The position numbers and the translations under genes are program-made. Under the pieces are notes generated by a model. That model made no database searches and had not been told where the DNA came from. It saw only the letters and a list, made by a program, of their open reading frames with translations. From assembly GCA_036381515.1 (NCBI GenBank), contig DASVCR010000074.1, positions 6,629 to 70,628 of the forward strand: a DNA stretch of 64,000 bases, read 5' to 3'. How positions within the stretch are numbered: position 1 is the first letter of the stretch; every line of letters starts with the position of its first letter. Below are positions 10,076 to 60,533 of this stretch, piece after piece. The stretch comes from Gammaproteobacteria bacterium (GTDB lineage: Bacteria > Pseudomonadota > Gammaproteobacteria > Steroidobacterales > Rariloculaceae).

Positions 10076-10076
10076 T

Positions 10077-14042: not shown

Positions 14043-14048
14043 GGGATG

Positions 14049-14519: not shown

Positions 14520-14553
14520 CTTTAGGCACTATATCCATCCCGCATCCGCTCCA

Positions 14554-14573: not shown

Positions 14574-14643
14574 GGCGTGTCATGCGTGGCGCGTGCGCAC
14601 AATGGCCACGCCGCGCTAGGAGGGACCCGCCAGCGCATCGGCG

Positions 14644-17211: not shown

Positions 17212-17274
17212 GAGGGTCAGCGTCGCAAGAAATTGGGGTCAGAGCCCGTTAGGCAGGAAGGGCGCCCGATCCGA

Positions 17275-17306
17275 GCGTTGTGCAATACAAGCGTTGTGCA
17301 ATACAA
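17275..17306 (+). repeat. Perfect tandem duplication of a 16-bp unit gcgttgtgcaatacaa (contains GTTGTGC core-like sites)
   Basis: Read directly. GTTGTGC is at 17277-17283 and 17293-17299. It is the exact complement of GCACAAC at 17586-17592. Confidence 0.8.
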
Positions 17307-17338
17307 ATGAGCCGTTTCACGATTCGCTGTGGGGGGCG

Positions 17339-17566
17339 ATGGACATTGCCTTGCGGGTAACTGTCTTATCGATCGTCGCGGTCGGCCTGTGTCTGATTGT
17401 GTGGCTGTGTTATCGCCTTTTGCGATGGGCGCGCACAGGGACTGGTGGAGCGCACATGCTGGGTGCGGTCCTAACCGAAGTTACTCAGAGCCCTGCTGTT
17501 CAGGAAGCCAAGCAGGGTAAGAAATCTCGTGAGGACGGTGGAGGTGACCCTCCGAACGGGCAGTGA
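17339..17566 (+). CDS. Small membrane protein (orphan, cassette-like ORF)
   Basis: ORF 17294..17566, ATG at 17339 (MDIALRVTVLSIVAVGLCLIVWLCYRLL). It has one TM helix and low G+C. An attC-like element lies 20 nt downstream. Confidence 0.5.
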   Translation: MDIALRVTVLSIVAVGLCLIVWLCYRLLRWARTGTGGAHMLGAVLTEVTQSPAVQEAKQGKKSREDGGGDPPNGQ

Positions 17567-17585
17567 AGAGCGCCGTGTGCCGCTT

Positions 17586-17710
17586 GCACAACAAGCAGTT
17601 GCAGCGGACCGTGACACCTTGGCGCGGGCGCGTCGCACTGCGACACTTCACTATGCACGTGCGGCGCGCTGGACGCGTGGTCACGCGGCCGCTGAACTGC
17701 GGCGCTTTGG
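17586..17710 (+). repeat. attC-like imperfect palindrome
   Basis: GCACAAC-aagca-GTTGCAGC...GCTGAAC-tgcggc-(gctttgg). R'', L'' and L' are well formed and the R' position is degenerate. Its arms and much of the centre match the 13917-14042 element in inverse orientation. Confidence 0.55.
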
Positions 17711-17737
17711 AAAAAGGGCTCTGACCCCGATTTTCTG

Positions 17738-17947
17738 TCACTTCCGCGCGCCGAGCCGCGCGAGCATCAGCGAGAGCTCTTCCGGGCTGATGTAGAAGTG
17801 CTCGCAGACGCGGCCCCAGAGCATCGCCGTCGGCACGTTGCGGTCGGCGCGCTCCTTCTGCGTCTCGTGCAGCACGTGGAGGACGATCCGCTCCTTCCGC
17901 GTCAGCCCGTCGCGGACGTCGGGGAGGATGTCGTCGAGGCGTTTCAC
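17738..17947 (-). CDS. Small hypothetical protein, possibly winged-helix
   Basis: ORF 17738..18037(-). The 5' end of that ORF is REP DNA, so I prefer the internal GTG at 17947 (VKRLDDILPDVRDGLTRKERIVLHVLHETQKE...). The start is uncertain and no clear RBS is present. Confidence 0.45.
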   Translation of the reverse strand: MKRLDDILPDVRDGLTRKERIVLHVLHETQKERADRNVPTAMLWGRVCEHFYISPEELSLMLARLGARK

Positions 17948-18019
17948 GGGAGGGGTTCCGCTTGCGTATTGCCGGGGCACGATGTCCAACGAGGCGCTGA
18001 CCCTACGATACCAGCAGGG

Positions 18020-39500: not shown

Positions 39501-39659
39501 CTCGCGCTCGGGACCGGCGAGGCGGCGCAGCTGCGCGCGCCGCTCGCGCTGACGGTCATCGGCGGGCTCACGGCGTCGACGCTCGGCTCGCTGTTCGTGA
39601 TCCCGTGCGTCTATCTCGTGCTCGACCGGATCGGCTTCCGATCCCGCCGGGCGACGTAG
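36588..39659 (+). CDS. RND efflux transporter permease (AcrB/HAE-type)
   Basis: ORF 36531..39659. ATG 36588 gives MSEALARIAVRRPVAVTVLAAAIVVLGWVSWRGLPLDLLPDIESPTVLVSV, a canonical RND N-terminus. It is about 1020 aa with 12-TM architecture. Confidence 0.92.
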   Translation: MSEALARIAVRRPVAVTVLAAAIVVLGWVSWRGLPLDLLPDIESPTVLVSVTAGERPAIEMERLYGERIEQLLFTVRGLRGIDQIARTGELITRVTFDWDADIDLALVDVNKAVAPIAADTDVDEVRVRRFDPRQLPVLVLGLVPADGRQMDLAELRRIAERRIAPGLEQLRGVAEVRVTGGREKQVEVRLDRTRLDAYGLTIDEVRSRISATNADVNAGTLVQGDRVYLVRGLSRFTGPDDVARTVVRYEETASQGTVPIHVADLGEVVLADAEITHVVRVDGVEGVGLSIYKEAGANTVEISRLVRDALERLATDLPGIDVRTVADEAALIEDAIADVESAALLGIALAVAVLFVFLRSPGPILVVATAIPVSLLATVFAMGLAGHSLNLMTLGGLALGAGMLVDNAIVVMESIFRRRAQGDAPADAAAKGTGLVGGAIVASTLTTCVVFLPVVLIEGMAARLVGGIAFTVVMSLLVSLAVAVALIPALAAWLLPRERTRDVDPGNSRVEAVVYALLGRPWTVVGCAAVLSAVAAASLWRLGTELLPPADPRQFSVRIVGPPGQRVESTVETVSVVEAVLAEAAGEDLRAMLSEVGRLPNDDRLIREQQTEENTAEIRLLLAAGGQGGSTVVQKAVPVVAGLNGVEASWEVGSSALSRALGTAGPPIVVEIAGDSIEDLRSAAEHVRERLAAVPELWNVQTSFEGAPPEMRITLKRALADGLGVDLDAVGAVLEASLDGLDATTLTIGDEEYDVVLRLPVADPDTLLALPLSTRDGHRVTVGDVARLDQVEGAREIVRRDQRRIARVTARIAPGVTAPEARAAALAAVAAADLPPGLSAELAGEERERARTTEELGFAAALALLLVFMVLAGTFESLLHPVTVLAAIPLSLIGVALVLVPAGAPIGVMAMLGLIVLAGIAVNDAILLADAAKRQIDDGVERRRALARAASIRLRPIIMTTATTVLALVPLALGTGEAAQLRAPLALTVIGGLTASTLGSLFVIPCVYLVLDRIGFRSRRAT

Positions 39660-39667
39660 GTCCGACC

Positions 39668-42600
39668 GTGGTGCTCGACCTCGTCGCGCTGCCCGTTCGC
39701 CGGCCTACCGCGACGGCGATGTTCTTCCTCGCGCTCGTGATGCTCGGGCTCTTCGCGTGGTACCGGATACCGATCGAGCTGATGCCGGCGCTCCGCGGCG
39801 AGCAGCTCGTCGTGTCGTTCGTGCGTCCGGGGTCCGAGCCCGAGGTCGTCGAGCGCGAGATCCTGCTGCCGCTCGAGGCGCGCGTCGGCGAGCTGCCGGG
39901 GCTCACCGAGACGTGGGGCGAGGTGAACGGCGCGAGCGGCCGTCTGCAGCTCCAGTTCGAGCGCGGCACGAACATCCGCGTGCGCGAGCTCGAGCTCAAC
40001 AGCATCGCGGCGGAGCTCGCGCGCACGCAGCCGGAAGGCACGTTCATCAACGTCTCGTCGCAGGACCTGACGGCGTTCAGCCGCTTCGCGATGATCATCC
40101 ACGTGACCGGGGGCGCCGATCCGAACGCGTTGCGCGATCTCGTCGAGCAGCGGATCGAGCCGCGGGTCGCCGCGGTCCCCGGCGTGAGTCAGGTGCTTGC
40201 GACGGGCGGCGCGCCGCGCGAGGTCACCGTGTGGATCGACCCGGAGCGCTGCGCGGCGCTCGGCATCCGTCCCGAGACGGTCACGGCGCTGCTCGGCCGG
40301 TCCGTGCAGCGGCTGCGCTTTCTCGGCGGCACCGAGCGCGACGGCCGCCGCTGGCAGGTCACGCTCGACGGGCGCCCCGGCGGCGTCGCATCGCTCGGCG
40401 AGCTCAGGATCGATCCCGCGCGGCCGGTGCTCTTGCGCCACGTCGCCGACATCGAGATGACGACCGCGCGCGCCGACAGCGCGTTCCGGATCAACGGCGC
40501 CGACGCGACGGGGCTCATCGTCTTTCAGGAGGAGGGCGAGAACCTCGTGCGGCTCGGCCGCGCGCTGCGCGAGCGGGTCGAGGAGCTCCGCGCGGAGTGG
40601 GCGCCGTACGGCGTCGATTTCCGGATCGGCTTCGACGCGGCCGAGACCGTCGAGGAGCAGCTCGATCGGCTGAAGCAGCTCGCGCTGTCGGGCTTCGTGA
40701 TCGCGCTCGCCGTGCTCTACCTGTTCCTGCGCGAGCTGCGCGCGGTCGCGGTCGTCGCCGTCGCCGTGCCGATGAGCCTGCTCATCGCGGGCGCGATGCT
40801 CTATCTCGGCGGCTACACGCTGAATCTCGTCACGCTGCTTGGTCTCGCCGTCGGCATCGGCATGCTCGTCGACAACAGCATCGTCGTCTTCGAGGCCGTG
40901 CAGCGGTTCCTCGAGCGCGGGCTCTCGGCGGAGTCCGCTGCAATCGCGGGCATCAGGCGCACCGTCCGCGCGATCGTCGCGGCGAGCGCGACGAACGCCG
41001 TCGTGTTCCTGCCGGCCGTGTTCCTCGTCGACGACAGCTTCATCCGCGGCGCGCTCGAGCTCGTCGCGATCGCGATCCTGCTGCCGCTCTTCGCGTCGCT
41101 CGTCGTCGCGGTCGGCTTCGTGCCGCTCCTGGCCGAGAAGTTCGCGGCGCCTGCTGCGGCCGCGCGCCTCGCGCGGCGGGCCGATTGGCGGCGGGAGCAC
41201 GGCGGCAAGCCGCCGCCGCAACGTGCCCGGGCGCTCCTGTCCGCGATCCTGAAATCCGCGTTGCGGCGGCCCGCGCCTTGGCTCGTCGCCGTCACGGTGT
41301 CGATCGTGCTGACGATCGTGATCGCGTTGCCGTGGGTGCTCGTCGGCAGCCTCGCGCAGCAGGCCGAGCAGGCCGACCAGGTCAGCCTCGAGATCGAGCT
41401 CGCCGGGAGCCGATCGCTCGACGCGGCGACCTCCGTCTTCGCGCGGATCGAGCAGGCGGTGCTCGGCCTCGACGGGATCGAGCTCGTCGAGAGCTCGTTC
41501 CAGGAGGTCGGCGGCACGCTGACCGTGCACCTCGATCCCGCCGCACGCGACGCGGGCGGCGCAACGGCCGGGCGCGTCCGCGAAGAGGTGCGCAAGGCCG
41601 TCGAAGGCCTCGACGGCGTCGAGCTCCGGACGATGACTCTCGACGGCACCGGCGGGGGATCGGGCGACGAACGCAACGGCGGCGGGGGCGGCGCGCTCGG
41701 CGGGTCCGCGTCCGAGGTGCGCGTGTCCGGACCGGACATGGTGCAGATCAACCTGATCGCGCGCGAGATCCAGTCGCGGCTCGAGTCGATCCCCGACGTC
41801 GAGGAGGCGTGGATCTCGGGCGGCACGGGCCAGGACGAGCTGCGCGTCGAGCCGCTGGCCGCCGCGCTCGCCGCATATCGGCTCAATCCGGAGGACGTGC
41901 TGAACGCGCTGAACGTGTTCCGGCGCGAGGGCGTACAGCTCCAGGTCGGGTTCACGCTCGCCGACGGGCGCGAGCTGCCGCTGACCGTGCGTCGGCCCGA
42001 CGTCGTCGCGTACGACGCGCTCGCGTCGATCGACGCGCTCCGGCTCGCGACGGACGAAGGCGTCGTGCCGTTCGGCGTCGTGACGACGGGCAGCCGCGTG
42101 CCGGCGCCGCCCGCGATCGCGCATCACAATGGCCGGCGCGAGCTTTCGGTGAGCTACAGCCTCGGCAGCTCGGCGCCGGAGCAGGGGCCCGAGCGCCTGC
42201 GGCTCGAGTCGGCAATCGAAGAGGCGGTGCGCACCGTTTACCGGCCCTCGGGGTACACGGTCGAGTCGGTCGTCGACGAGGGCACGGATTGGTTCAGGCT
42301 CGTCTTCGTGCCGGTGCTCCTGCTGCTCTACGCCGTGCTCGCGATCACGTTCGAGTCGTTCACGCTGCCGATCCTCGTGCTCGTCGCCGTGCCGCTGACC
42401 GTGCTCGGCGCGACGTGGTCGCTCGTGCTCGCCGGCGTAGGCGCCGGCATCTACGCGCTCGTCGGCGTGATCGCGCTGCTCGGGCTCACGGTGAATCCCG
42501 CAATCCTGCTCGTCGACCGCATGCAGCAGCGCGTGCTCGGGAGCGGCTCGAGCGGCGGCGCGGCCGCGATCGCCGCGGTGCGCGAGCGCACGCGGCCCGT

Positions 42601-44431
42601 GCTGATGACGAGCGCGACGACGATCGCGGGCTTGTGGCCGCTCGCGCTGTCGACCGGCCAGGAGCTCGAGATCTGGCCGCCGTTCGCGACCGTCGTGATG
42701 GGCGGCCTCGCGACGTCGACCGTGCTGACGCTCGTCGTCATTCCGGTCGGCTTCGTGCTGCTGACGCGCATCGACCGGATCTTCGGCAAGCTCGGTCCGT
42801 GGATCGTGCTCGGCTGGATCGCGGCGACGGCGGCGGTCGTCGCGCCGCTGATCGTCACGGATCGCTTGAACGCGCTCGGCTGGCAGATCACGACGACCGT
42901 GCTCGTCGCCGCAGCGCTCCTGTGGCTCGCGCTCGCGATCTTCCACCGGGCGCCGAAGCTCGCGTTCGATCCCGCCGCGACGGCGATCGAGGCCCGCTAC
43001 CTCGCGAAGGTGTACGGCAGGCCAGGATCGGTCAAGCGCGCGTGGCGGCTCGGCCGCGACGGCGGCCGCGACGGCGGTGCGTCCGCCGCGCGCACGCGGC
43101 GCGACGCGGGCGAGCGCGCGCTGACGTTCACCATGCTCTTCGCGGGCGCGCTCTATCTCGCGACGCACCTGGGCTCGATGCCGTGGCGGCTCGTCTTCGC
43201 GTACATCGCGGCGGCGTTCGCGGCGCGTGCGGTGATCGAGCTCCGCCTCGCGGTGCTGCCGCCGCGCGAGGAGGCGCGCGACGCACGGATCGCCCGCGGC
43301 CTCACGTTCGATGCGATCGTTCCGACGCTCGCGCCGTGGATCATGCTCGCGGCGCTCGCGGTCGCGTACATGGTGCTGCCGGCCATCGACGGCACGCGCC
43401 AGGCGCTGCCGCCGGTCGCCGTCGTCGTGCTCGCCGGGCTCACGCTGATCGTGCAGCTCGGCCGCCGGACCGCGCGCCGCGCCGCGGGTGCGGCCGCGGC
43501 GGGCGCGCCGGCGGACGTCGGCCGCGTGCGCGCCGCGTGGCGGCAGGCGTGTCTCGCGGTATTCGGTCTCGACCTCCCGCGCGCCGAGATCGAGGCGCTC
43601 GCGACGACGAGCTTCGCGGCGAAGCAAGGCATGATCGGCATCCTCGGTCCGAACGGCGCCGGCAAGACGACGCTGCTCCGGATGCTTGCGGGCGTGCTCG
43701 ATCCGACCGCGGGCGCGATCCACTACAGCGGTCTGCCGAAGCGCCGCGTCGGCGGCTACGTGAGCCGCTGGGTCGGCTATCTGCCGCAGGAGTTCGGTCT
43801 GCCGAATCACCTGACCGCGCGCGAGTATCTCGACTACTTCGCGCTGCTCTACGAGGTCGGGGACCGGCAGGAGCGGCGCGAGCGCGTCGACGCGCTGCTC
43901 GCCGAGGTCGGTCTCGACGAACGCAAGGACGAGAAGATCGGCGCGTACTCGGGCGGCATGCGGCAGCGCGTCGCCGTCGCGCGCACGTTGCTCCGTCATC
44001 CGCCGATCATCATCGTCGACGAGCCGACGGTCGGGCTCGATCCGCGCGAGCGGATCCGTTTCCGGAACCTGCTCTCGCGGCTCGCCGAAGGGCGCGTCGT
44101 GCTGTTCTCGACGCACGTCGTCGAGGACGTCGCCGTGTCGTGCCGGCGGGTCATCGTGATGAGCCGCGGCCGGATCGTCTACGACGGCGCGCCTGCGGAC
44201 CTCGCGGGGCTCGCGGCGGGGAAGACGTGGGAGATCCGCCTGGCGGCCGGCGAGCACGTCGAGCTCCCGCGATCGTGCAAGGTCGTCGATCAGGTGCCCG
44301 ACGCGGGCGGCGGCGTGCGCATGCGCGTGCTGTCCGCGACGCAGCCGCATCCGGCGGCGAAGGCGATCGAGCCCGTGATCGAGGACGGCTATCTCGAGCT
44401 CGTGACGCGAGGAGGCGAGCGCGATGCGTGA
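39668..44431 (+). CDS. RND efflux permease fused in frame to extra TM helices and a C-terminal ABC ATPase domain
   Basis: ORF 39605..44431. GTG 39668 follows the upstream stop at 39659. The RND N-terminus is LPVRRPTATAMFFLALVMLGLFAWYRIPIELMP, and the RND body runs to about 42790. Hydrophobic segments follow. The NBD has GPNGAGKTT (about 43646-43672), YSGGMRQR (about 43949) and IIIVDEPTVGLD (about 44005-44030). No stop or frame change interrupts the ORF. Confidence 0.85.
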   Translation: MVLDLVALPVRRPTATAMFFLALVMLGLFAWYRIPIELMPALRGEQLVVSFVRPGSEPEVVEREILLPLEARVGELPGLTETWGEVNGASGRLQLQFERGTNIRVRELELNSIAAELARTQPEGTFINVSSQDLTAFSRFAMIIHVTGGADPNALRDLVEQRIEPRVAAVPGVSQVLATGGAPREVTVWIDPERCAALGIRPETVTALLGRSVQRLRFLGGTERDGRRWQVTLDGRPGGVASLGELRIDPARPVLLRHVADIEMTTARADSAFRINGADATGLIVFQEEGENLVRLGRALRERVEELRAEWAPYGVDFRIGFDAAETVEEQLDRLKQLALSGFVIALAVLYLFLRELRAVAVVAVAVPMSLLIAGAMLYLGGYTLNLVTLLGLAVGIGMLVDNSIVVFEAVQRFLERGLSAESAAIAGIRRTVRAIVAASATNAVVFLPAVFLVDDSFIRGALELVAIAILLPLFASLVVAVGFVPLLAEKFAAPAAAARLARRADWRREHGGKPPPQRARALLSAILKSALRRPAPWLVAVTVSIVLTIVIALPWVLVGSLAQQAEQADQVSLEIELAGSRSLDAATSVFARIEQAVLGLDGIELVESSFQEVGGTLTVHLDPAARDAGGATAGRVREEVRKAVEGLDGVELRTMTLDGTGGGSGDERNGGGGGALGGSASEVRVSGPDMVQINLIAREIQSRLESIPDVEEAWISGGTGQDELRVEPLAAALAAYRLNPEDVLNALNVFRREGVQLQVGFTLADGRELPLTVRRPDVVAYDALASIDALRLATDEGVVPFGVVTTGSRVPAPPAIAHHNGRRELSVSYSLGSSAPEQGPERLRLESAIEEAVRTVYRPSGYTVESVVDEGTDWFRLVFVPVLLLLYAVLAITFESFTLPILVLVAVPLTVLGATWSLVLAGVGAGIYALVGVIALLGLTVNPAILLVDRMQQRVLGSGSSGGAAAIAAVRERTRPVLMTSATTIAGLWPLALSTGQELEIWPPFATVVMGGLATSTVLTLVVIPVGFVLLTRIDRIFGKLGPWIVLGWIAATAAVVAPLIVTDRLNALGWQITTTVLVAAALLWLALAIFHRAPKLAFDPAATAIEARYLAKVYGRPGSVKRAWRLGRDGGRDGGASAARTRRDAGERALTFTMLFAGALYLATHLGSMPWRLVFAYIAAAFAARAVIELRLAVLPPREEARDARIARGLTFDAIVPTLAPWIMLAALAVAYMVLPAIDGTRQALPPVAVVVLAGLTLIVQLGRRTARRAAGAAAAGAPADVGRVRAAWRQACLAVFGLDLPRAEIEALATTSFAAKQGMIGILGPNGAGKTTLLRMLAGVLDPTAGAIHYSGLPKRRVGGYVSRWVGYLPQEFGLPNHLTAREYLDYFALLYEVGDRQERRERVDALLAEVGLDERKDEKIGAYSGGMRQRVAVARTLLRHPPIIIVDEPTVGLDPRERIRFRNLLSRLAEGRVVLFSTHVVEDVAVSCRRVIVMSRGRIVYDGAPADLAGLAAGKTWEIRLAAGEHVELPRSCKVVDQVPDAGGGVRMRVLSATQPHPAAKAIEPVIEDGYLELVTRGGERDA

Positions 44432-52830: not shown

Positions 52831-53394
52831 ATGACCGTCGTTTCCGAGAAAGCCATCGGGGATCATCTCGACTTCGTCGTCGCGCAGCCCGACCACGAGC
52901 AGGCCGTCGTGCGCGACCTCGTCTTCGCCGTGATGGCGTTCAATCAGTACACGCGCGGCGAGCCGCTGCAGGTCAGCTTCCCGCTTTACACGGAAGCGAA
53001 AGTCGCGAGCCGGGGGGCTCTCGGACCGTGCGTGCGGATCACGGGACCCGCGGAGAAGCTCTACGTGCTCACGTTGCGCTACGAGATCGCGGAGCACCTG
53101 CGGGCGGGCCGCGTGATGACGCTCATCCGCGACCGCGTCGTCGTCGAGGCTGGCCGCAACGAGCGCTTCTCGCTGATCCATGGCGCGCCGAAGATCGCGC
53201 TCGCGCAGCCGGCGCGTGCGCGGCCGCTCGTCCTCACCGGGCATTCGCGGCTCATCGAGACGGCAGCCGCGTTGGGCGTCGCCGTGAAGGACGAGGCGGC
53301 GTTCGTCGAGCGCGAGGAGAGCCCCGTCGCGACGGACGGCGAAGTGGATCTGCTCGGCTTCTCGGATCGGAAGACGCTGCCGGTTCTGAAATAG
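52831..53394 (+). CDS. Hypothetical protein (no recognisable domain)
   Basis: 187-aa ORF with good GC3 bias. It is on the same strand as, and 198 bp upstream of, the 53593-58399 operon. Confidence 0.6.
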   Translation: MTVVSEKAIGDHLDFVVAQPDHEQAVVRDLVFAVMAFNQYTRGEPLQVSFPLYTEAKVASRGALGPCVRITGPAEKLYVLTLRYEIAEHLRAGRVMTLIRDRVVVEAGRNERFSLIHGAPKIALAQPARARPLVLTGHSRLIETAAALGVAVKDEAAFVEREESPVATDGEVDLLGFSDRKTLPVLK

Positions 53395-53592: not shown

Positions 53593-54324
53593 ATGAGCCG
53601 ACCGGTCCCTACACGGCACGAGCCGGCGGAGCGGTTCGCCGACGACCTGCTTCGCCGATTGGACGCGGCAGGCGAGCGAGGCCTGACGTCCGCGGAGCTC
53701 AAGCTGCCTAGCGCGGGCTCGCGGGCGGGCCGCGCGTGCCGCGGCGCGTTGCAGAGTCTGTTGAGGCGCGGCGAGATCGGTAATCTCGGCACCGCGAAGC
53801 GGCCCCGCTATGTTTCGATTGAGTATTACCGCCCGCTCGAGATCGCGTACGACCATATCGCGGCCCGGGCGCGCGAAGCCGGCACCAGGTTGTCGTCGAA
53901 GACCGCGCTCGCAAAGGGGCTCTCCGGCGCGGCAAAAGAGCGTGTCGACGAGGCATTGAAGCTCCTCGTCGCCGAGGGCGCGCTGCTGCGGCTCAAGTGG
54001 GGCGTGCATCCGCTCTACCTGCACGCATCAGCCGTATCCACGCGACCGAAAGGGCACACTGCTAACGGCATCGATGCCGCCGCGCTGCGCCGCGCGTACG
54101 ACGATACCGTCCGCGAGTTCGGGTATCCCGACGTGCTGATCCACGAGCTGCATTTGCGCCTCGGCGGCGAGCTCGAGCCGTTGAAACAGGCGCTGCTCGA
54201 TGCATGCCGGACAGGCGAGGCCATCCCCGGCGTCGGCGACTGGTCGTTGTCTTCGGAGAACGAGCGGGCCGCGGCGCTCTACGTCGACGGACGTCCGCAT
54301 TTGCGGATCCGTTTTAGGCGATGA
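53593..54324 (+). CDS. Hypothetical protein with two winged-helix-like segments
   Basis: 243 aa. LLRRLDAAGERGLTSAELKL...ALQSLLRRGEIGNLG and KERVDEALKLLVAEGALLRLKWG look like wHTH recognition units. Its stop overlaps the next start (ATGA at 54321-54324). Confidence 0.7.
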   Translation: MSRPVPTRHEPAERFADDLLRRLDAAGERGLTSAELKLPSAGSRAGRACRGALQSLLRRGEIGNLGTAKRPRYVSIEYYRPLEIAYDHIAARAREAGTRLSSKTALAKGLSGAAKERVDEALKLLVAEGALLRLKWGVHPLYLHASAVSTRPKGHTANGIDAAALRRAYDDTVREFGYPDVLIHELHLRLGGELEPLKQALLDACRTGEAIPGVGDWSLSSENERAAALYVDGRPHLRIRFRR

Positions 54325-56450
54325 CAACGATGGTCGAGCGGCAAGCGCTGTCCATCAATCCATTCGCCGACGACATTGTCGACGATCCGCGGCGGGTCGA
54401 GTACTCGGTGCCGGGGCTCAACGAAAAGGTCGCCTCGGAGATCGTTTCCCGGATCGAAGCGCTCTGCAACCCGGACGAGCTGAGCCGGCGCCCACACCCT
54501 CGAAAGGCGTTGATCGTGCTCTCGAGACGCGCCGGCTTCGGAAAGTCGCACCTGATCGGCACCGTCTTCAGGAAACTCAGTGGCAAGGCGACGCTCGTGA
54601 ACGTGCGTCCGTTCGAGGATCCGGCGACGCGTTGGAAATCGATCCTCGATCGGGTCGTGCAGGAGCTGGATTTTCCGGACCGCTACACGGAGTCCGTTGC
54701 CGATCAGCCGACGCAGCTCGAACTCTTCGCGCACGGCGTGCTGAGCAGGATTGCCGCCGACCAGCTCGAAGCGAGCCGCGGCAGCAAGCGGGACATCGAC
54801 CGATTACGGCAACCGGCCGACCGGCTGGCAGGACTCAAGCGCCACAAGAAGTGGCGCGAGTACATCGACAACGCGACGCGCGACGGTGCATGGCTGAGCC
54901 AGGTTGAACGTCGGTTGCAGGCGAGCCAGCTGCGCCTCGATACGCCACTGCCGACGTGGCTGCGCGTGCTGTACAGCTACGCCTATCAGGGCGATGACTG
55001 GGATCTGCGCCGTTCTTGTCTCGACTGGATACAGGCGGACGCGATAGAGGACGGGACCGCCGCGGCGATCGGCATCCGTATTGCGGACCGTGTCAATCCG
55101 ATGTATGGCGCGGTCGAGCTAAACGAGCTCGCGAAGACGCGCGTGCTCGACCTCTGCCGCCTGTCGAGATTCTTTCGGCCGTTCCTGTTCTGCTTTGATC
55201 AGACGGAGATGTACGGCAACTCGCCCGAGCTCGCGGCCGCGCTGGGGACGGTGATTCACGAGCTCGTCGACGAAGGCGTGAATCACGTGGCCGTGATCAC
55301 GGCCAATGCTGACCCATGGGAGAAGCTGTTGCGGCCGCACTGGCAGAATGCCAGTCGCGACCGGCTGGATCGACCGTACTTGACGCTGGAAGGCATCACC
55401 CGCCAGCAAGGTTGCGAGCTGGCTGAGCATCGGCTCGGGCTGTTCGACATCGACCGGGCCGGAAGGGACCGCTTCTGGGCCGACCGGCGCTGGCTCGAGG
55501 AACACTTCGAGAGTAGCGCCGAGGTCAGTGTCAGGGATTTTCTCCATCGATGCTCGCACCGGTGGATGGAGTGCGTCGCCCGTCCTGACGCCGCAGTGGC
55601 GCCGGCCGAGCGGGTCCCGCTCACCGCGCTGTTCGAGAAGTACGTTGACGCCGTCAGTGCGAAACCACGCCGACTGGTCTTCGACCGGGACGCGCTCCAT
55701 TGGCTCGTTCGCCATCTGGCCGAAGGGCTTGATGGCGTCGAAGTGGGCACGCTTGGTGAGCGCCCGAAGGGCGGGCTGCCGCTATGGCGGCACGCCGGGA
55801 AGGAGTACGTGTTCGGCTTCGAGTCCGGTACGCACTGGAAGAAGTGGCATAACATCGCACGGGCGGCGCTCGGCAAAAGCGCTGAGCACGGCCGGGTTCT
55901 GGTCTACCCGCGCACGCCGGAGCTGCCGCGGATTCCGAGACCGACGTGGAACGTTGCAAAGCCGGATATCGAGCGGGCGCGTGCGACCGGCGGCCTGCTG
56001 ATCCTCGAGCTCACGAAGCACCGAGTCGTCGAACTCTATGCCGCGCACGAGATGTACGCGGATGCGCTGCAAGGCAACATCGATTGGGCTGTAGACGACG
56101 TGGTGCCGTTCCTGCGCGAGCGATTGGCCGACTTCTGGCGCGAGGTGCTCGACCCTCGCGGCGAGCCTGCACCGACTCGAGGCCCTGATTCGGTATCCCC
56201 GAGTCCGTCCGACGCCGCGCCCGCGGAGCGAAAGCGCATGAAGCGGCGGCGTCCGAACGGCGGCGAGGGCGAGCTTTCGCGTCGCGTCGTCGACGTGATC
56301 CGCAGCAGACGGTTCATGAGCCTCGATGAGTTGCTCGCGACGCTACCCGACGCGGATCGCGAGGCGGTGCTCGGCATCTGCGGCGGCACGGCCGGCATCA
56401 AGGTGCATGCCCACCCGAACCAGACGATCCTGCAATGGCAGACCGCCTGA
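54321..56450 (+). CDS. Large P-loop NTPase (STAND/AAA-like) with C-terminal winged-helix-like tail
   Basis: 709 aa. Walker A LSRRAGFGKSHLIG (about 54531-54555). Walker-B-like FLFCFDQTE (about 55182-55208). The basic linker KRMKRRRP is followed by RFMSLDELLATLPDADREAVLGI. It overlaps both neighbouring genes. Confidence 0.75.
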   Translation: MTTMVERQALSINPFADDIVDDPRRVEYSVPGLNEKVASEIVSRIEALCNPDELSRRPHPRKALIVLSRRAGFGKSHLIGTVFRKLSGKATLVNVRPFEDPATRWKSILDRVVQELDFPDRYTESVADQPTQLELFAHGVLSRIAADQLEASRGSKRDIDRLRQPADRLAGLKRHKKWREYIDNATRDGAWLSQVERRLQASQLRLDTPLPTWLRVLYSYAYQGDDWDLRRSCLDWIQADAIEDGTAAAIGIRIADRVNPMYGAVELNELAKTRVLDLCRLSRFFRPFLFCFDQTEMYGNSPELAAALGTVIHELVDEGVNHVAVITANADPWEKLLRPHWQNASRDRLDRPYLTLEGITRQQGCELAEHRLGLFDIDRAGRDRFWADRRWLEEHFESSAEVSVRDFLHRCSHRWMECVARPDAAVAPAERVPLTALFEKYVDAVSAKPRRLVFDRDALHWLVRHLAEGLDGVEVGTLGERPKGGLPLWRHAGKEYVFGFESGTHWKKWHNIARAALGKSAEHGRVLVYPRTPELPRIPRPTWNVAKPDIERARATGGLLILELTKHRVVELYAAHEMYADALQGNIDWAVDDVVPFLRERLADFWREVLDPRGEPAPTRGPDSVSPSPSDAAPAERKRMKRRRPNGGEGELSRRVVDVIRSRRFMSLDELLATLPDADREAVLGICGGTAGIKVHAHPNQTILQWQTA

Positions 56451-58399
56451 GCGTCACGGAGCTCAAGTGCGCCGTGCTCGATCAAGAGTTTCGGCGCCGG
56501 CTGATCGACGGCGAGCGGCCCGCGATCCCGTGGTGCGTTCCGTCGAATGGCGGACCGCCGGTCAAGGGCGCGTTGTTTCACAAGCTCGCGGACGCGTTCA
56601 CGCGGTGGCTGTCGAGTGCCGGGCCGCAAGGCTTGGATCTCGTGACCGCGGACGATCTTTGGCACGCGCTCTACGACCGCTTCGCCGAAGCGGACCTGAC
56701 GGAGCTCGCGGAAACCGGGCAGCTCGAGTCGGCGCTCCATATAAGCCTTTGCCTGCGCACCTTCTGCACCCGGCTCGCCTCGCTGCGGGGCTCGATCCAG
56801 GGCTTCGCCGGCTGGCAGGATCTTTTCCTCGGCATGGAGCTCCCGATCGAAGGCGTCGTGATCGCGGATACCGACTTCGCGGTGTCGGGCCGGGTCGATG
56901 CAGTGCGCGCCGACACGAAACACGGCGTCGTCGTCGTGGACTACAAGTTGTCGCGCGGCAGTCAGACGAAGCATGACCTGCTGCAGCTGGCGATCTACGC
57001 GCATCTCCTCGAAGCGATTCGGCCCGGGTTGAGCTTCGCCGGGCTGCTCGAGTACTACGATCCGGAGCTCTGCTGCATAGAGGTAGACCCCGACGACCTG
57101 CGCGCATTGTTCCGCGACGTCGTAATGCCCGTGCTCCGCGAGATGACCGACACCCGCCGTGCTGCCGAGGCGCGGCGAACGGGCATCGCGGCGCATCCGG
57201 GCGACGGAAAGGCAGCATCGCCCCAGCAACGCGGTGCGGCCGGCGATCGTGCGGCGGACGAGGCAACCGACGGCTCGGCGGAGACGGCGCAAGCGGAAAC
57301 TACGCACGCCGACACTGCACGAGCGGACGAAGAGCCCGATCTGTCTACGCTAATCGTCGAGACGTTCGCCGACTTCCGTCTCGACGTCCAGGTGGTCGGG
57401 CGCGTGAAGGCGCCGCAGCTCGTGCGCTACAAGGTGCGGCCCGCGCGCGGCGTGAAGGTCGTTTCGCTCGCTAACCGCTCCGAGGACCTGCAGGTGCGCC
57501 TCACGTTGCCGTCACCGCCGCGAATCGGACCCTGCGAGGGATACGTCAGCGTCGACATTCCGAAGAGGTGCCCTCGAACCGTTTATTGGAGCGACATCCG
57601 TTCGGCCTCCCGATCTGAGCACGGGTCCGTCGTCTTTCCGATCGGCGTCGGCGTCGAAGGCGACGTGCTGTTCGCGGACTTCGCGGATCCCAACACGTGC
57701 CACGCGATCGTCGCCGGAACCTCCGGCAGCGGCAAGAGCGAGTTCCTGAAGTCGATGTGCGCGTCGCTGCTCGCGCGCAACCGCCCCGACACGCTGCGCC
57801 TGACGTTGGTCGACCCGAAGATCCTGACCTTCGGCGCGCTGAGCCGCTTCCCGCACGTGTCGGGGCCCGTGATCAGCGACGTCGACGAAGCGATCGAGTG
57901 CCTCGAGCGCGCCGTCGCGGAGATGGAGGCGCGCTATCGTCAGCTCGCCGATGAAGGGTTCACGAATCTCGCCGAGCGGATGTGCGCGGGCCGCGCCGAC
58001 CTGCCGTTCCATGTGATCGTCTTCGACGAGTTCGCGGATCTCGTGCTCGCCGGGAAGCAGCACAAGGCGACGTTCGAGAGCTTCGTCGCGCGGCTCGCCG
58101 CGAAGGGGAGAGCCGCCGGCATTCACCTCGTGCTCGCGACGCAGCGTCCCGACAGGACGATCGTGACCGGAATCATCAAGGCGAACCTGCCGCTGAAGGT
58201 GTGTCTCAAGGTCACGAGCGCCGTCAACTCGCAGATCATCCTCGACGAGGCCGGCGCCGAGACGCTCGTCGGCAAGGGCGATCTCTTGTGCGACCGCGGA
58301 CGCGGCGTCGAGCGCGCGCAATCGCCGTTCGTCCGTCCGGACGACCTCGACGCGCTTTACGCGGAGGCGGCACGTTTCGCGGATCGGGCGACCGCCTGA
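56435..58399 (+). CDS. PD-(D/E)XK (Cas4/RecB-like) nuclease domain fused to FtsK/SpoIIIE-type DNA translocase (alpha+beta domains, no TM, no gamma domain recognised)
   Basis: The N-terminus has GRVDAV...VVVVDYKL...QLAIYAHLL (D, D/ExK, QxxxY). A low-complexity linker follows. Then come the FtsK alpha-like segment (QLVRYKVRPARGVKVVSLANRSEDLQVRL), Walker A GTSGSGKS, Walker B FHVIVFDEFADL and AAGIHLVLATQRP. It overlaps the upstream gene by 16 nt. Confidence 0.85.
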   Translation: MADRLSVTELKCAVLDQEFRRRLIDGERPAIPWCVPSNGGPPVKGALFHKLADAFTRWLSSAGPQGLDLVTADDLWHALYDRFAEADLTELAETGQLESALHISLCLRTFCTRLASLRGSIQGFAGWQDLFLGMELPIEGVVIADTDFAVSGRVDAVRADTKHGVVVVDYKLSRGSQTKHDLLQLAIYAHLLEAIRPGLSFAGLLEYYDPELCCIEVDPDDLRALFRDVVMPVLREMTDTRRAAEARRTGIAAHPGDGKAASPQQRGAAGDRAADEATDGSAETAQAETTHADTARADEEPDLSTLIVETFADFRLDVQVVGRVKAPQLVRYKVRPARGVKVVSLANRSEDLQVRLTLPSPPRIGPCEGYVSVDIPKRCPRTVYWSDIRSASRSEHGSVVFPIGVGVEGDVLFADFADPNTCHAIVAGTSGSGKSEFLKSMCASLLARNRPDTLRLTLVDPKILTFGALSRFPHVSGPVISDVDEAIECLERAVAEMEARYRQLADEGFTNLAERMCAGRADLPFHVIVFDEFADLVLAGKQHKATFESFVARLAAKGRAAGIHLVLATQRPDRTIVTGIIKANLPLKVCLKVTSAVNSQIILDEAGAETLVGKGDLLCDRGRGVERAQSPFVRPDDLDALYAEAARFADRATA

Positions 58400-58612
58400 C
58401 CCGCTGTACCGCGGCCGCCTAGTCGGCGAGCACCCGTATCCAGCCGTCCTGGCGTGACGTCAGGAACAGCGTGCCGTCGCTGCCGCGGCAGCGCGTGCCT
58501 GGGATCGCGCCGGCGGCACCGCTCGCGCAGCTGGTCTTCCCAGGACTGTCGGCAGCGACGAGCACCGACGACCGCAGCTTGACTGTCCGCACGCGTCGTC
58601 GATACTCCGCCA

Positions 58613-59893
58613 GTGGCCAAACGTACAGGCAGCGCGGATCTTCCCCTGCACGGCGGCCGGGTTCCTGCCTGGCTCGCCGCCCGCATGGCCGCACTCGGCC
58701 GGGTGATTGCCGAGGCGATCGTCCATCATTACGGCCGCGACGAGCTGCTTCGAAGACTCGCGCATCCGTTCTGGTTTCAGTCGTTCGGCGCGGTGATGGG
58801 GATGGACTGGCACTCGTCGGGCATCACGACGAGCGTCATCGGCGCGCTGAAGCGCGGGCTCGCGCCGATCGAGAACGAGCTCGGCGTCTACGTGTGCGGC
58901 GGCCGCGGCCGGCACTCGCGCCGCACGCCGTCGGAGCTTGCGAGCGTCGGCGAGCGAACGGGCCTCGCGGGCGACGCGCTCGCGCAGACGAGCCGCCTCG
59001 TCGCAAAGATCGACTCTGCGGCGGTGCAGGACGGCTACGAGCTGTACCTTCATGCGTTCATCGTGAGCGCCGACGGCGATTGGTGCGTCGTGCAGCAGGG
59101 TCTGAACGATGCACGCCGTGAAGCGCGCCGCTACCATTGGCTTTCCGAGAACCTCGAAAGCTTTCTCGACTCGCCGCACGCGGCGATCGAGGGTCGGCGC
59201 CGCGGCAAGATCGTGAACCTCGCCGATGCGCGCGCGGCAGGAAACCGCAGCGCCGCGCTCGATCTGCTGCGCGACGGCCCGGACCGGACGCTCCGCGTGC
59301 TGCGACGGCTCCGCGCGTCCGGCAACGCGACGCCGAGCCTGTTCCCCGAGCTCGAGCCTGCGCACGATCACGTCGAGCTCCGCGACGACGCCCTCGCGCC
59401 GCTGCCCCGTCTGCAGATGCCGGCACGACACGAGGTCCGTGCATCGGACGTCGTGCTGAGAAGGCTGCATGGCGCGCTCGCGGCCGCGACCGAGCGCGGT
59501 CCTCGCGATTTCAGCGACGTGCTGCTGACGCCCGGCGTCGGCGCCCGCACCGTCGCGGCGCTCGCGCTCGTCGCCGAGGTCGTTCACGGCGCGCCGTGCA
59601 GGTTCTCGGACCCCGCGCGCTTCTCGCTCGCGCATGGCGGCAAAGACGGGCATCCGTTCCCGGTTCCGCTCCACGTGTACGACGAGACGATCCGCGTGCT
59701 GAAAAGCGCCGTCGACCGCGCCAGGCTCGGCAACGCCGATCGCCTGCACGCGATACGCCGCCTCGATGCCGAGGCTCGAGCGCTCGAGCGCACGGCGAGC
59801 GGGCCGCGCTTCGACGCGTTCGTCGCTCGGGAACGCGCGCGGTCCTTCGAATACGGCGGGCGCTCCGTCCGGCGACGGCTTCACGACGAATAG
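58613..59893 (+). CDS. DUF763 domain-containing protein
   Basis: GTG start. LPLHGGRVPAWLAARMAALG...HPFWFQSFGAVMGMDWHSSGITTSVIGALK is the conserved DUF763 N-terminus. Confidence 0.85.
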   Translation: MAKRTGSADLPLHGGRVPAWLAARMAALGRVIAEAIVHHYGRDELLRRLAHPFWFQSFGAVMGMDWHSSGITTSVIGALKRGLAPIENELGVYVCGGRGRHSRRTPSELASVGERTGLAGDALAQTSRLVAKIDSAAVQDGYELYLHAFIVSADGDWCVVQQGLNDARREARRYHWLSENLESFLDSPHAAIEGRRRGKIVNLADARAAGNRSAALDLLRDGPDRTLRVLRRLRASGNATPSLFPELEPAHDHVELRDDALAPLPRLQMPARHEVRASDVVLRRLHGALAAATERGPRDFSDVLLTPGVGARTVAALALVAEVVHGAPCRFSDPARFSLAHGGKDGHPFPVPLHVYDETIRVLKSAVDRARLGNADRLHAIRRLDAEARALERTASGPRFDAFVARERARSFEYGGRSVRRRLHDE

Positions 59894-59946
59894 GGGCGGG
59901 CCCTGTTCAATCTTCGCGTCCGTGCAGCCGGGTTGCCGCCTCGAGC

Positions 59947-59971
59947 AAGCATGCTTAATATAAGCTTGCTT
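59947..59971. promoter_or_regulatory. Two 10-bp near-identical palindromic boxes AAGCwTGCTT separated by aatat (MarR-type operator candidate)
   Basis: aagcatgctt (59947-59956) and aagcttgctt (59962-59971). They sit in a short AT-rich stretch immediately upstream of the MarR reading frame. Confidence 0.55.
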
Positions 59972-60056
59972 ATCAATCACGGAAGACCCGCAGATTCCCT
60001 CGAACCAGCCCCCTGAGCGCAGCGTCGGCTTTCTGATCACCGACGTCTCGCACCTG

Positions 60057-60533
60057 TTGCGTCGGAACTTCAACCGGCGCGCGCACGCGCTCGGCTTGAG
60101 CCAGGCGCAATGGCGCGCGCTCGCGCACCTGGCGCGCAACGAGGGGCTGAAGCAGAGCGCGCTCGCGGAGCGCCTCGAGGTCCAGCCGATCACGCTGACC
60201 CGTCTGATCGACCGCATGGAGGCGGCCGGATGGGTCGAGCGGCGGCCGGATCCGAACGATCGCCGGGCAGTGCGGCTCTATCTGACGACTCAGGCGCAGC
60301 CTGTGCTCGCCGAGATGCAGCGCGCCGCGACGGGGATGCTCGACGAGGCGCTGCGCGGCCTGTCGGTCGAGGATCGGCTGCAGCTCGTCGATGCGCTCTG
60401 CAGGATCAAGCGGAACCTGTCCGACGTGGAAGGTCCGGCGGTGCCCGGCCTGGATTCAAGGAAGAAACCCGATGTCCGAAGAGCAACGAAGAAACGCGAT
60501 GCCCGAAGAGATCGTGAAAGCAGAGCCCGCTGA
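60057..60533 (+). CDS. MarR-family transcriptional regulator (5' end probably extends upstream with a non-canonical start)
   Basis: LSQAQWRALAHLARNEGLKQSALAERLEVQPITLTRLIDRMEAAGWVERRPDPNDRRAV is a canonical MarR wHTH. The frame is open from 59964 and encodes SVGFLITDVSHLL upstream of TTG 60057. There is no ATG/GTG/TTG in that stretch. Confidence 0.85.
   Translation: MRRNFNRRAHALGLSQAQWRALAHLARNEGLKQSALAERLEVQPITLTRLIDRMEAAGWVERRPDPNDRRAVRLYLTTQAQPVLAEMQRAATGMLDEALRGLSVEDRLQLVDALCRIKRNLSDVEGPAVPGLDSRKKPDVRRATKKRDARRDRESRAR

What the first reader, a model, noticed from the sequence alone, without database searches (positions are those of the whole stretch)
56435..58399. Soluble FtsK alpha/beta motor with an N-terminal Cas4/RecB-type nuclease replacing the membrane anchor
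Seen: the first ~250 aa carry GRVDAV, VVVVDYKL and QLAIYAHLL. This is a PD-(D/E)XK core, apparently without the Cas4 Fe-S cysteine cluster. An acidic/Ala-rich low-complexity linker follows. After it comes a full FtsK alpha-like segment and a RecA-fold beta domain (GTSGSGKS; FHVIVFDEFADL; HLVLATQRP). I see no TM helices and no gamma (KOPS-reading) winged helix. Canonical FtsK/SpoIIIE proteins are membrane anchored and are not nucleases. A hexameric pump tethered to six nucleases would be a processive DNA shredder.
Basis: partly seen in the sequence, partly recalled or inferred. Interest (0 to 1): 0.75.

Follow-up and report, generated by a model that had tools for sequence, protein, structure and literature searches.

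The report
Nuclease-armed FtsK pump in defence operon
The gene encodes a soluble FtsK-type DNA pump fused to a RecB/Cas4-like nuclease, and it is the third gene of a three-gene cassette that was predicted by comparative genomics in 2024 to be an anti-phage/anti-plasmid system but has never been tested experimentally.

Summary
ORF 56435-58399 (+, 654 aa) has three domains:
- a PD-(D/E)XK nuclease (PDDEXK_1, E 1.3e-10);
- FtsK alpha (E 8e-10);
- the FtsK/SpoIIIE motor (E 2e-38; PDB FtsK E 1e-81).

It has no TM segment, no gamma domain and no Cas4-type Fe-S cysteines. The nuclease residues H49, E135, D155, D169-x-K171 and Q184-xxx-Y188, and the motor residues K434, D531/E532 and Q570/R571, are invariant or nearly so in 120 homologues.

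The gene overlaps two upstream genes in one operon:
- A, 243 aa, three tandem winged helices;
- B, 709 aa, an Orc/Cdc6-like AAA+ ATPase with an extra alpha/beta domain and a C-terminal winged helix.

The A-B-C order recurs in about 25 loci from six phyla, each with different flanks. Natural B-C fusion proteins also exist.

This fits the 'Orc/Cdc6 + REase + FtsK-alpha/FtsK + wHTH' class of 'HerA/FtsK capture' counter-invader systems described computationally in NAR 2024 (PMC10853773). I found no experimental test of that class.

Verdict: a real feature and a new member of a predicted kind. A defence role is likely but inferred, and the cassette does not sit in a defence island. Interest is moderate.

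The parts
53593..54324 (+). Gene A, 243 aa: three tandem winged-helix (wHTH) domains, predicted to bind DNA. It is the fastest-evolving of the three genes.
   Evidence: The AF2 model has pLDDT 91.5 and three H-H-H-beta-beta units. Foldseek matches tandem-WH proteins: RPC34, TFIIIC tauB, SelB WH2-4, STK19 and ScpB, with E from 1.6e-5 to about 1e-3. No Pfam, PADLOC or PDB sequence hit. Identity to orthologues is 26-61%, or undetectable in 4 loci with full-length C that also extend upstream of B. Its stop overlaps the start of B (ATGA at 54321-54324).
54321..56450 (+). Gene B, 709 aa: an Orc/Cdc6-like AAA+ ATPase. The core spans aa ~30-345, with Walker A G72-x-GKS76, D293 and N329. It is followed by a lid, an alpha/beta domain (aa ~434-610) and a C-terminal wHTH (aa ~649-706).
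   Evidence: The AF2 model has pLDDT 88 and pTM 0.89. The high-probability Foldseek hits are ORC4, Cdc6 (1fnn), archaeal ORC2 and BrxC, at probability 0.97-1.0 but E only 5e-3 to 5e-2. Pfam gives only a weak AAA_16 hit. The invariant Walker and sensor residues are listed.
55620..56150 (+). Middle alpha/beta domain of B (aa 434-610). It is a candidate inactive restriction-endonuclease-like domain.
   Evidence: The secondary-structure order alpha-beta-beta-beta-alpha-beta-alpha-beta fits a PD-(D/E)XK core. There is no conserved D...(D/E)xK, no Pfam hit and hhalign against C's nuclease gives probability 0.2%. The assignment is therefore inconclusive.
56435..58399 (+). Gene C, 654 aa: the protein of the finding, nuclease-FtsK alpha-FtsK beta. 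Its start overlaps the end of B by 16 nt.
   Evidence: The 16-19 nt B/C overlap is also present in L001, L003 and L004.
56435..57154 (+). RecB/Cas4-type PD-(D/E)XK nuclease domain of C (aa 1-240), predicted to be active.
   Evidence: PDDEXK_1 E 1.3e-10. H49, E135, D155, K171 and Q184 are 120/120; D169 and Y188 are 119/120. An exhaustive search of 1.84e9 representatives finds only 114 relatives. Apart from short fragments and a few intermediate-length proteins I did not examine, the domain sits at the N-terminus of ~600-730 aa proteins or at an internal position in ~1140-1420 aa proteins. P0203, the one such long protein checked directly, is a B-C fusion.
57155..57295 (+). Ala/Asp/Glu/Thr-rich low-complexity linker, expanded in this lineage.
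   Evidence: This segment is mostly gaps in the homologue alignment. Linker length is 64 aa against a median of 30.
57296..57562 (+). FtsK alpha domain (aa 288-376).
   Evidence: PF17854 E 8.1e-10. The PDB FtsK structure 2iuu aligns from profile position 260.
57611..58354 (+). FtsK beta (RecA-fold) motor, aa 393-640, with intact Walker A and B, Q570 and R571. No gamma domain follows.
   Evidence: PF01580 E 1.9e-38. PDB FtsK E 1.3e-81. PADLOC SspH C-terminus E 4.7e-58.

Best explanation
Genes A-B-C (53593-58399) form one operon. It encodes a modification-independent counter-invader system of the 'Orc/Cdc6 + HerA/FtsK capture' type.

C is the effector. Like FtsK alpha-beta, it should assemble as a hexameric ring on double-stranded DNA and pump DNA with ATP. 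Six flexibly tethered RecB/Cas4-type nuclease domains would cut the DNA as it is translocated.

C lacks the membrane anchor and the KOPS-reading gamma domain of cellular FtsK. Targeting and loading are therefore proposed to come from its partners. A is the fast-evolving triple winged-helix protein. B is an Orc/Cdc6-like AAA+ ATPase with its own winged helix and a degenerate nuclease-like domain. Together they would recognise foreign DNA, or a DNA state such as ends or replication, transfer or packaging intermediates, and then recruit or license the C ring.

Shown: the domain composition, the intact catalytic sites, the operon conservation, B-C fusion proteins and a sporadic distribution across phyla.

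Inferred: hexamer formation, coupling of translocation to cleavage, the loader and sensor roles of A and B, and the defence function itself.
For: - Architecture and intact active sites of C.
- A-B-C order is conserved in L001, L003, L004 and about 20 GTDB loci. These span Gamma-, Alpha- and Zetaproteobacteria, Desulfobacterota, Verrucomicrobiota and Planctomycetota, with unrelated flanks.
- Overlapping stop and start codons suggest translational coupling.
- Natural fusions of B(1-~620) to full-length C exist: P0203, P0209, P0228.
- B has an Orc/Cdc6/BrxC-like fold. A is a triple wHTH.
- A and B diverge faster than C.
- GC3 of the cassette is 0.80-0.85 against 0.88-0.93 in neighbouring genes.
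- C's motor is homologous to the C-terminal motor of SspH/DndH. The DndFGH complex is reported to have nickase and translocase activity (PMC11662687 abstract).
- The same domain set is described as a predicted anti-invader system in PMC10853773.
- A precedent exists for a nuclease stacked on a HerA/FtsK-superfamily hexamer that cleaves dsDNA in defence: DUF4297-HerA (PMC11291478).
Against: - I found no experimental evidence for this family.
- The cassette is not embedded in defence islands. Only a handful of 142 flanking ORFs from 19 loci hit PADLOC models, and most of those hits are generic. The window itself carries only metabolic and efflux genes.
- No full-length copy occurs on PLSDB plasmids or INPHARED phages.
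- No modification enzyme is present, so there is no obvious way to spare the host chromosome.
- A and B have no PADLOC hits.
- B's Orc/Cdc6 assignment rests on Foldseek hits with modest E-values. Sequence profiles find nothing significant.
Confidence: 0.6

Rival explanations
1. It is a defence system, but not a 'shredder'. The motor would scan or reposition DNA and the nuclease would make limited nicks or single cuts, as reported for DndFGH. Alternatively, the system acts by abortive infection and degrades all DNA in the cell once it is triggered.
For: C's motor is closest to the SspH/DndH C-terminal motors among defence profiles. DndFGH is described as a nickase and translocase. DUF4297-HerA is reported to act by abortive infection (section headings). 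The absence of a modification module and of a gamma domain argues against sequence-directed discrimination of self from non-self.
Against: RecB/Cas4-family nucleases fused to translocating motors (RecBCD, AddAB, AdnAB) typically degrade DNA processively from ends; this rests on established knowledge, not on a test here. Nothing in the sequence tells nicking apart from shredding.
Confidence: 0.17
2. It is an accessory DNA repair or recombination machine. It would be a bacterial analogue of HerA-NurA or AddAB, in which a dsDNA pump feeds ends to a RecB-type nuclease for end resection, with A and B as DNA-damage or structure sensors.
For: The pairing of a HerA/FtsK-superfamily motor with a nuclease is the logic of HerA-NurA end resection (PMC12977600 abstract). 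The nuclease core aligns with AdnB and AddA nuclease domains. The flanks are housekeeping rather than defence genes. The cassette sits at a syntenic site in a relative that is 85% identical.
Against: The distribution is very sparse and patchy. Only about 20 of the best 80 loci, drawn from 185,579 species representatives, carry the full-length form. There are only 114 clusters at 50% identity among 1.84e9 proteins. The DNA-binding partner evolves fast. The cassette's GC3 is atypical for its surroundings. These traits fit conflict systems better than repair genes.
Confidence: 0.1
3. It is a module of a mobile genetic element. It would process, segregate or transfer the element's own DNA, as in TraB-like FtsK transfer proteins or Tn7-like elements that pair a TnsC-type AAA+ with a TnsA-type nuclease.
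For: FtsK-family motors drive conjugative dsDNA transfer; NCBIfam gives a TraB hit at E 5.9e-15. The Orc/Cdc6-clade AAA+ paired with an REase-fold domain recalls transposon ATPase and nuclease pairs, as noted in PMC10853773. The cassette sits in different genomic contexts in different phyla.
Against: No integrase, transposase, relaxase, tRNA, or flanking direct or inverted repeats lie next to the cassette. There are no plasmid or phage copies. Only the three genes are conserved between loci.
Confidence: 0.08
4. It is a divergent cell-division or chromosome-segregation FtsK paralogue whose N-terminal domain is only structural.
For: The motor is 35-41% identical to cellular FtsK over aa ~300-640. 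The NCBIfam FtsK model gives E 1.5e-56. Public annotation names it 'DNA translocase FtsK'.
Against: It has no membrane domain and no gamma domain. It scores 192 bits against a cut-off of 1566 for the FtsK equivalog. The nuclease catalytic residues are invariant. It is linked in an operon, and sometimes fused, to an Orc-like ATPase. Its distribution is sporadic.
Confidence: 0.02

Closest known systems
Orc/Cdc6-coupled 'HerA/FtsK capture' counter-invader systems (computational description, NAR 2024;52:1005, PMC10853773; restated in PMC12839542)
   Same: The domain inventory matches: a HerA/FtsK motor fused to FtsK-alpha, an active REase-fold nuclease, and an Orc/Cdc6-type AAA+ with an extra domain before its C-terminal wHTH. 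It also has the optional fast-evolving multi-wHTH protein and the same mobile, sporadic distribution.
   Different: I could not confirm that B's inserted domain is an inactive REase. I also could not check the paper's figure or accession lists. The class itself is only predicted, with no experiments.
DndH/DptH and SspH of the DndFGH / SspFGH restriction modules
   Same: The C-terminal FtsK-alpha and FtsK motor is homologous: PADLOC SspH E 4.7e-58 and 1.2e-40, covering the last ~260-320 positions of the profiles. Both combine an REase-fold nuclease with a translocase. DndFGH is reported to be a nickase and translocase.
   Different: SspH and DndH are ~1,600-1,800 aa, with helicase-remnant, TRD and inactive-methylase domains that are absent here. 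The nuclease here is RecB/Cas4-type and N-terminal. The partners are an Orc-like ATPase and a 3xwHTH protein, not DndF/G. No PT-modification genes lie in the window.
Cellular FtsK/SpoIIIE
   Same: The alpha and beta domains match: PDB 2iuu E 1.3e-81, with 35-41% identity to bacterial FtsK motors.
   Different: There is no N-terminal membrane domain, no long linker and no gamma (KOPS) domain. A nuclease domain has been added. It is encoded in a three-gene cassette.
Cas4 / RecB-family nucleases (AddA/AddB, AdnB)
   Same: The motifs match: GxxxH, the D, (D/E)xK and QxxxY. Hits include Cas4 profiles at E 1e-7 to 5e-6, AddA, and PDB Cas4 4ic1 and AdnB aligned over the core.
   Different: It falls below the Cas4 equivalog cut-off (29.9 against 65 bits). 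It has no 4-Cys Fe-S cluster. No cas genes lie nearby. The domain is a separate small subfamily found, as far as checked, only in this system.
DUF4297-HerA (Hailibu) and SIR2-HerA defence systems; archaeal HerA-NurA
   Same: A HerA/FtsK-superfamily hexameric ATPase works together with a nuclease on dsDNA (PMC11291478; PMC12977600).
   Different: In those systems the motor is HerA-type and the nuclease is a separate polypeptide. Here the motor is FtsK-type with an alpha domain, the nuclease is covalently fused, and two extra DNA-binding and ATPase partners are present. HerA profile hits are only weak.

Membership tests
Orc/Cdc6 + HerA/FtsK 'capture' system (PMC10853773) | [quoted passage not shown] | tested here: met
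   PF01580 E 1.9e-38 and PF17854 E 8.1e-10. PDB FtsK E 1.3e-81. Walker A and B, Q570 and R571 are 120/120.
Orc/Cdc6 + HerA/FtsK 'capture' system (PMC10853773) | An active REase-fold endonuclease domain | tested here: met
   PDDEXK_1 E 1.3e-10. H49, E135, D155, D169, K171, Q184 and Y188 are invariant or 119/120. Activity is inferred from conservation and was not assayed. The paper names two REase families; which one this is could not be checked.
Orc/Cdc6 + HerA/FtsK 'capture' system (PMC10853773) | Orc/CDC6-family AAA+ ATPase encoded in the same neighbourhood | tested here: met
   Gene B lies directly upstream and overlaps C. The best high-probability Foldseek hits of its AF2 model are ORC4, Cdc6, ORC2 and BrxC (probability 0.97-1.0, E 5e-3 to 5e-2). 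Walker A, D293 and N329 are conserved. Support is moderate, because sequence profiles are silent.
Orc/Cdc6 + HerA/FtsK 'capture' system (PMC10853773) | Inactive REase domain inserted between the AAA+ core and the C-terminal wHTH of the Orc/Cdc6 protein | tested here: inconclusive
   An alpha/beta domain sits in exactly that position (aa 434-610) with a compatible strand and helix order and no conserved catalytic triad. No Pfam hit, no profile-profile similarity to C's nuclease and no domain-level fold comparison was possible.
Orc/Cdc6 + HerA/FtsK 'capture' system (PMC10853773) | [quoted passage not shown] | tested here: met
   A is three tandem wHTH. B ends in H-H-H-beta-beta at aa 649-706. 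Identity of A to its orthologues (26-61%) is usually lower than that of C (40-61%). A sequence relationship to DndG or SspB was not detected by PADLOC.
Orc/Cdc6 + HerA/FtsK 'capture' system (PMC10853773) | Mobile, sporadically distributed gene neighbourhood | tested here: met
   The same cassette occurs in six phyla with unrelated flanks. Its GC3 is lower than that of its neighbours. However, no element boundaries were found.
Cellular FtsK/SpoIIIE | N-terminal multi-pass membrane domain | tested here: not met
   The highest 19-residue hydropathy mean is 1.47. The N-terminus is a nuclease domain.
Cellular FtsK/SpoIIIE | C-terminal gamma winged helix (reads KOPS/SRS, activates XerD) | tested here: not met
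   No FtsK_gamma hit. The tail after the beta domain is at most 28 aa in 120 homologues. The NCBIfam FtsK equivalog scores 192 bits against a cut-off of 1566.
Cas4 (CRISPR-associated) | RecB-type nuclease core together with a four-cysteine Fe-S cluster and a cas neighbourhood | tested here: not met
   The core motifs are present, but TIGR00372 scores 29.9 against a cut-off of 65. There is no conserved Cys after Y188. No cas genes were found among the window ORFs scanned.
DndH / SspH | Protein of ~1,600-1,800 aa with SF2-remnant, TRD, inactive MTase, REase and C-terminal HerA/FtsK domains, partnered with DndF/G or SspF/G | tested here: not met
   Only the last ~260-320 profile positions match. 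The protein is 654 aa. The neighbouring genes do not hit the Dnd or Ssp models.

The most novel reading that the evidence does not exclude
B would act as a true ring loader, in the way ORC/Cdc6 loads MCM. On recognising foreign DNA, or a DNA end, through its own wHTH and that of A, it would use ATP to assemble or close the nuclease-armed FtsK hexamer around that DNA. Immunity would then be gated by licensed loading of a dsDNA pump rather than by DNA modification. The system would be a loader-motor-nuclease machine with no characterised bacterial counterpart. The natural variants that fuse B directly to the motor and drop the RecB nuclease (P0214, L025) would be a second effector mode.
Probability: 0.2. 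Interest if true: 0.7.

Novelty: new member of a known kind. Interest (0 to 1): 0.4.

Why it matters
If it is functional, this would be a compact three-gene immune system. Its effector joins one of the fastest known dsDNA pumps to a RecB-type nuclease. It appears to be controlled by an origin-recognition-like ATPase rather than by DNA methylation.

The class has only been predicted from comparative genomics. The data assembled here make it directly testable:
- the invariant catalytic residues;
- the B-C fusion proteins;
- the nuclease-less variants;
- carriers with sequenced strains: Bradyrhizobium oligotrophicum S58 and Desulfonema limicola carry the whole cassette, and a gene B homologue occurs in Rhodovulum sp. 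PH10.

It also corrects the public annotation ('DNA translocase FtsK' / 'cell division protein FtsK'), which is misleading.

Tried and rejected
- Element boundaries. A repeat search around 52.8-59 kb found only short, low-identity matches. There are no tRNAs in the window and no integrase or transposase. I found no evidence of a discrete mobile element.
- Promoter and terminator scan of 53.1-58.8 kb. Results were no better than shuffled sequence. The only promoter-like site (58579-58606) lies downstream of C, in front of the DUF763 gene.
- Defence-island test. 142 flanking ORFs from 19 loci were scanned against PADLOC. Only scattered hits appeared (HEC-05, mad3/mad6, DpdE, kinase-type PD-T4-6, sigma54 activators), so there is no clear enrichment.
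- Plasmid and phage searches. Only the motor half matches cellular or phage FtsK-like genes. No record covers at least 80% of the query.
- iREase test for B's middle domain. Pfam at E up to 10 and hhalign against C's nuclease were both negative.
- PDB sequence-profile searches for A and B returned only noise.
- The 585-aa ORF downstream on the minus strand (58460-60217) was rejected as a fourth component. It has no homologue in the other loci, and the plus strand there encodes DUF763.
- The supplement of PMC10853773 held no accession lists. Iyer et al. 2004 is not in the library.
- I found no experimental paper on this family.

Full report
**1. Observation**

Pfam places three domains above gathering score:
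- PDDEXK_1 at aa 38-211 (E 1.3e-10);
- FtsK_alpha at aa 288-376 (E 8.1e-10);
- FtsK_SpoIIIE at aa 393-572 (E 1.9e-38).

A profile of 30 family members matches the Pseudomonas FtsK alpha-beta structure 2iuu at E 1.3e-81. A profile of the N-terminal domain alone reaches only Cas4 4ic1 (E 0.04) and AdnB. Both alignments run through the catalytic core, G-R-x-D-A ... (D/E)-x-K ... Q-x-x-x-Y. NCBIfam and PADLOC give weak Cas4 and AddA hits over the same residues.

The protein has no TM segment: the highest 19-residue hydropathy mean is 1.47. FtsK_gamma does not hit. The tail after the motor is at most 28 aa in 120 homologues.

Only C12 and C111 are conserved cysteines, and none follows Y188. The Cas4-type Fe-S cluster is therefore absent.

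The Ala/acidic linker is real, but it is a lineage-specific expansion: 64 aa against a median of 30.

**2. Conservation**

The database search returned more than 120 full-length relatives with the same three Pfam domains. They come from Gammaproteobacteria, Desulfobacterota, Verrucomicrobiota and Planctomycetota (Kuenenia). The exact protein is annotated 'MAG TPA: DNA translocase FtsK [Gammaproteobacteria bacterium]'.

Across these 120 sequences:
- H49, E135, D155, K171 and Q184 are 120/120; D169 and Y188 are 119/120;
- Walker A K434, Walker B D531/E532, and Q570/R571 are 120/120.

An exhaustive phmmer search of 1.84 billion cluster representatives with the nuclease domain alone found only 114 relatives. 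Apart from short fragments and a few intermediate-length proteins I did not examine, the domain sits either at the N-terminus of ~600-730 aa proteins or at an internal position (~590-1055) in ~1140-1420 aa proteins. This is a small, dedicated nuclease subfamily.

**3.

The gene is the last of three overlapping plus-strand genes:
- A, 53593-54324, 243 aa;
- B, 54321-56450, 709 aa;
- C, 56435-58399.

The A/B junction is ATGA, and B and C overlap by 16 nt.

tblastn of A, B and C against loci fetched around C homologues shows the same B-C order wherever the contig extends upstream of C. This holds in about 25 loci from six phyla. A is detectable in most of them.

The flanking genes differ completely between phyla. 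The exception is an 85%-identical relative (L086), which shares the tannase ... DUF763/efflux synteny.

Identity to the window proteins is usually lowest for A (26-61%, and undetectable in four of the loci with full-length C that extend upstream of B). It is intermediate for B (29-55%) and highest for C (40-61%).

Natural fusion proteins join B(1-~620) directly to full-length C: P0203, P0209 and P0228. In a second variant (P0214, and a 970-aa ORF in L025) B is fused to the alpha-beta motor only, without the RecB-type nuclease.

GC3 of A-C is 0.80-0.85 against 0.88-0.93 in the neighbours.

**4. The partners**

A models confidently (pLDDT 91.5) as three tandem winged helices. Foldseek finds tandem-WH proteins: RPC34, TFIIIC tauB, SelB WH2-4, STK19 and ScpB.

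B models at pLDDT 88 and pTM 0.89 as four parts:
- an AAA+ core, with an invariant Walker A GxGKS, D293 and N329;
- a lid;
- an alpha/beta domain at aa ~434-610;
- a C-terminal winged helix.

The high-probability Foldseek matches of B are ORC4, Cdc6, archaeal ORC2 and the BREX ATPase BrxC. Their E-values are modest, 5e-3 to 5e-2. Sequence profiles find nothing significant.

The middle domain has a strand and helix order compatible with a PD-(D/E)XK core and lacks a conserved catalytic triad. I could not confirm the fold.

**5. What is known**

A 2024 comparative-genomics paper (PMC10853773) describes 'HerA/FtsK capture' systems. One class of these is a mobile neighbourhood encoding:
- an Orc/CDC6 AAA+ with an inactive REase inserted before its C-terminal wHTH;
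- an active REase;
- a HerA/FtsK ATPase, which in one subset is fused to the FtsK-alpha domain and was judged to have been captured from cellular FtsK;

The authors propose that the HTH and Orc components localise the apparatus on invader DNA and that the pump brings DNA to the nuclease. The same group still treats these as predicted systems in 2026 (PMC12839542).

I found no experimental study. The family is not in PADLOC v2: only the SspH, mad8 and Cas4 models hit C, and nothing hits A or B.

The window's operon meets five of the six defining features I could test. The iREase feature is inconclusive.

It is not a cellular FtsK, because it lacks both the membrane and the gamma domains. It is not a Cas4, because it is below the cut-off, has no Fe-S cluster and has no cas context. 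It is not a DndH or SspH, because only the C-terminal motor matches.

**6. Mechanism**

The best-supported reading is a modification-independent counter-invader system.
- C forms an FtsK-like hexamer on dsDNA and pumps it with ATP.
- The six tethered RecB-type nucleases cut the DNA as it is pumped.
- A and B supply target recognition and loading or licensing, standing in for the missing gamma domain.

Shown: the domains, the intact active sites, the operon and fusion linkage, and the sporadic distribution. Inferred: oligomerisation, coupling of translocation to cleavage, the roles of A and B, and the defence function.

Two experimentally studied analogues lend plausibility. DndFGH is reported as a nickase and translocase. 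In DUF4297-HerA, nucleases stacked on a HerA hexamer cleave dsDNA.

**7. Caveats**

- The cassette is not in a defence island, either here or in 19 other loci.
- It has no plasmid or phage copies.
- It carries no modification gene, so how the host chromosome is spared is unexplained.
- No element boundaries were found.

These points keep alive three rivals: an accessory end-resection or repair machine, a mobile-element function, and a nicking or abortive-infection mode of defence.

**8. Verdict**

It is a new member of a kind already described in silico, so the surprise to a specialist is moderate.

Its value is as a well-defined, experimentally untouched system. Carriers with sequenced strains include Bradyrhizobium oligotrophicum S58 (L015) and Desulfonema limicola (L003). 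A gene B homologue also occurs in Rhodovulum sp. PH10.

Noticed in passing
L025:6222-9131 (Verrucomicrobiaceae MAG) and protein P0214 (997 aa): This is a variant in which B(1-~628) is fused directly to the FtsK alpha-beta motor (C residues 303-639). The RecB/Cas4-type nuclease domain is missing. Either B's middle domain or another protein must then supply the effector activity.
   Followed up: partly
window 56468-56470 and 56765-56767 (C12 and C111 of protein C): Two cysteines in the nuclease domain are conserved (99/120 and 97/120) even though the Cas4 Fe-S cysteine set is absent. Their role is unknown: they could be a remnant, a disulfide or a metal site.
   Followed up: no
window 52831-53394 (+): A 187-aa ORF lies directly upstream of gene A and is 93% identical to a called gene at the same position in L086. 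It has no Pfam or PADLOC hit and is absent from the other loci. It overlaps the 5' part of the 712-aa tannase ORF on the minus strand. The tannase Pfam match starts only at aa 253, so the tannase start is probably over-extended.
   Followed up: partly
window 58460-60217 (-) versus 58613-59893 (+): The long minus-strand ORF downstream of C (585 aa, no hits) is probably spurious. The plus strand there encodes a DUF763 protein (E 2.8e-125), which is also present downstream in L086.
   Followed up: yes
window 39605-44431 (+): A 1608-aa ORF combines a full AcrB-type RND transporter domain (aa 28-1053) with a C-terminal ABC ATPase domain (aa 1342-1475). It is either an unusual fusion or two genes merged in one frame.
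   Followed up: no
window 6350-11843 (+): A Planctomycete-type PSD/PSCyt multi-domain protein and a DUF1552 protein are followed by a 588-aa ankyrin-repeat protein. This is an unusual set for a gammaproteobacterial MAG.
   Followed up: no
window 12000-18000, ORF 15043-17211 (+): This stretch has lower G+C (0.645-0.67 against ~0.70). It holds a 722-aa ORF (GC3 0.80) with no Pfam or PADLOC hit, and may be another horizontally acquired gene.
   Followed up: no
L001:10203-16131: In one gammaproteobacterial MAG the cassette lies next to an SbcCD-like pair (AAA_23/SMC_N plus Metallophos), a Uma2 endonuclease and a Helicase_C protein. This is the only flank examined that looks like a DNA-conflict or repair cluster.
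   Followed up: no
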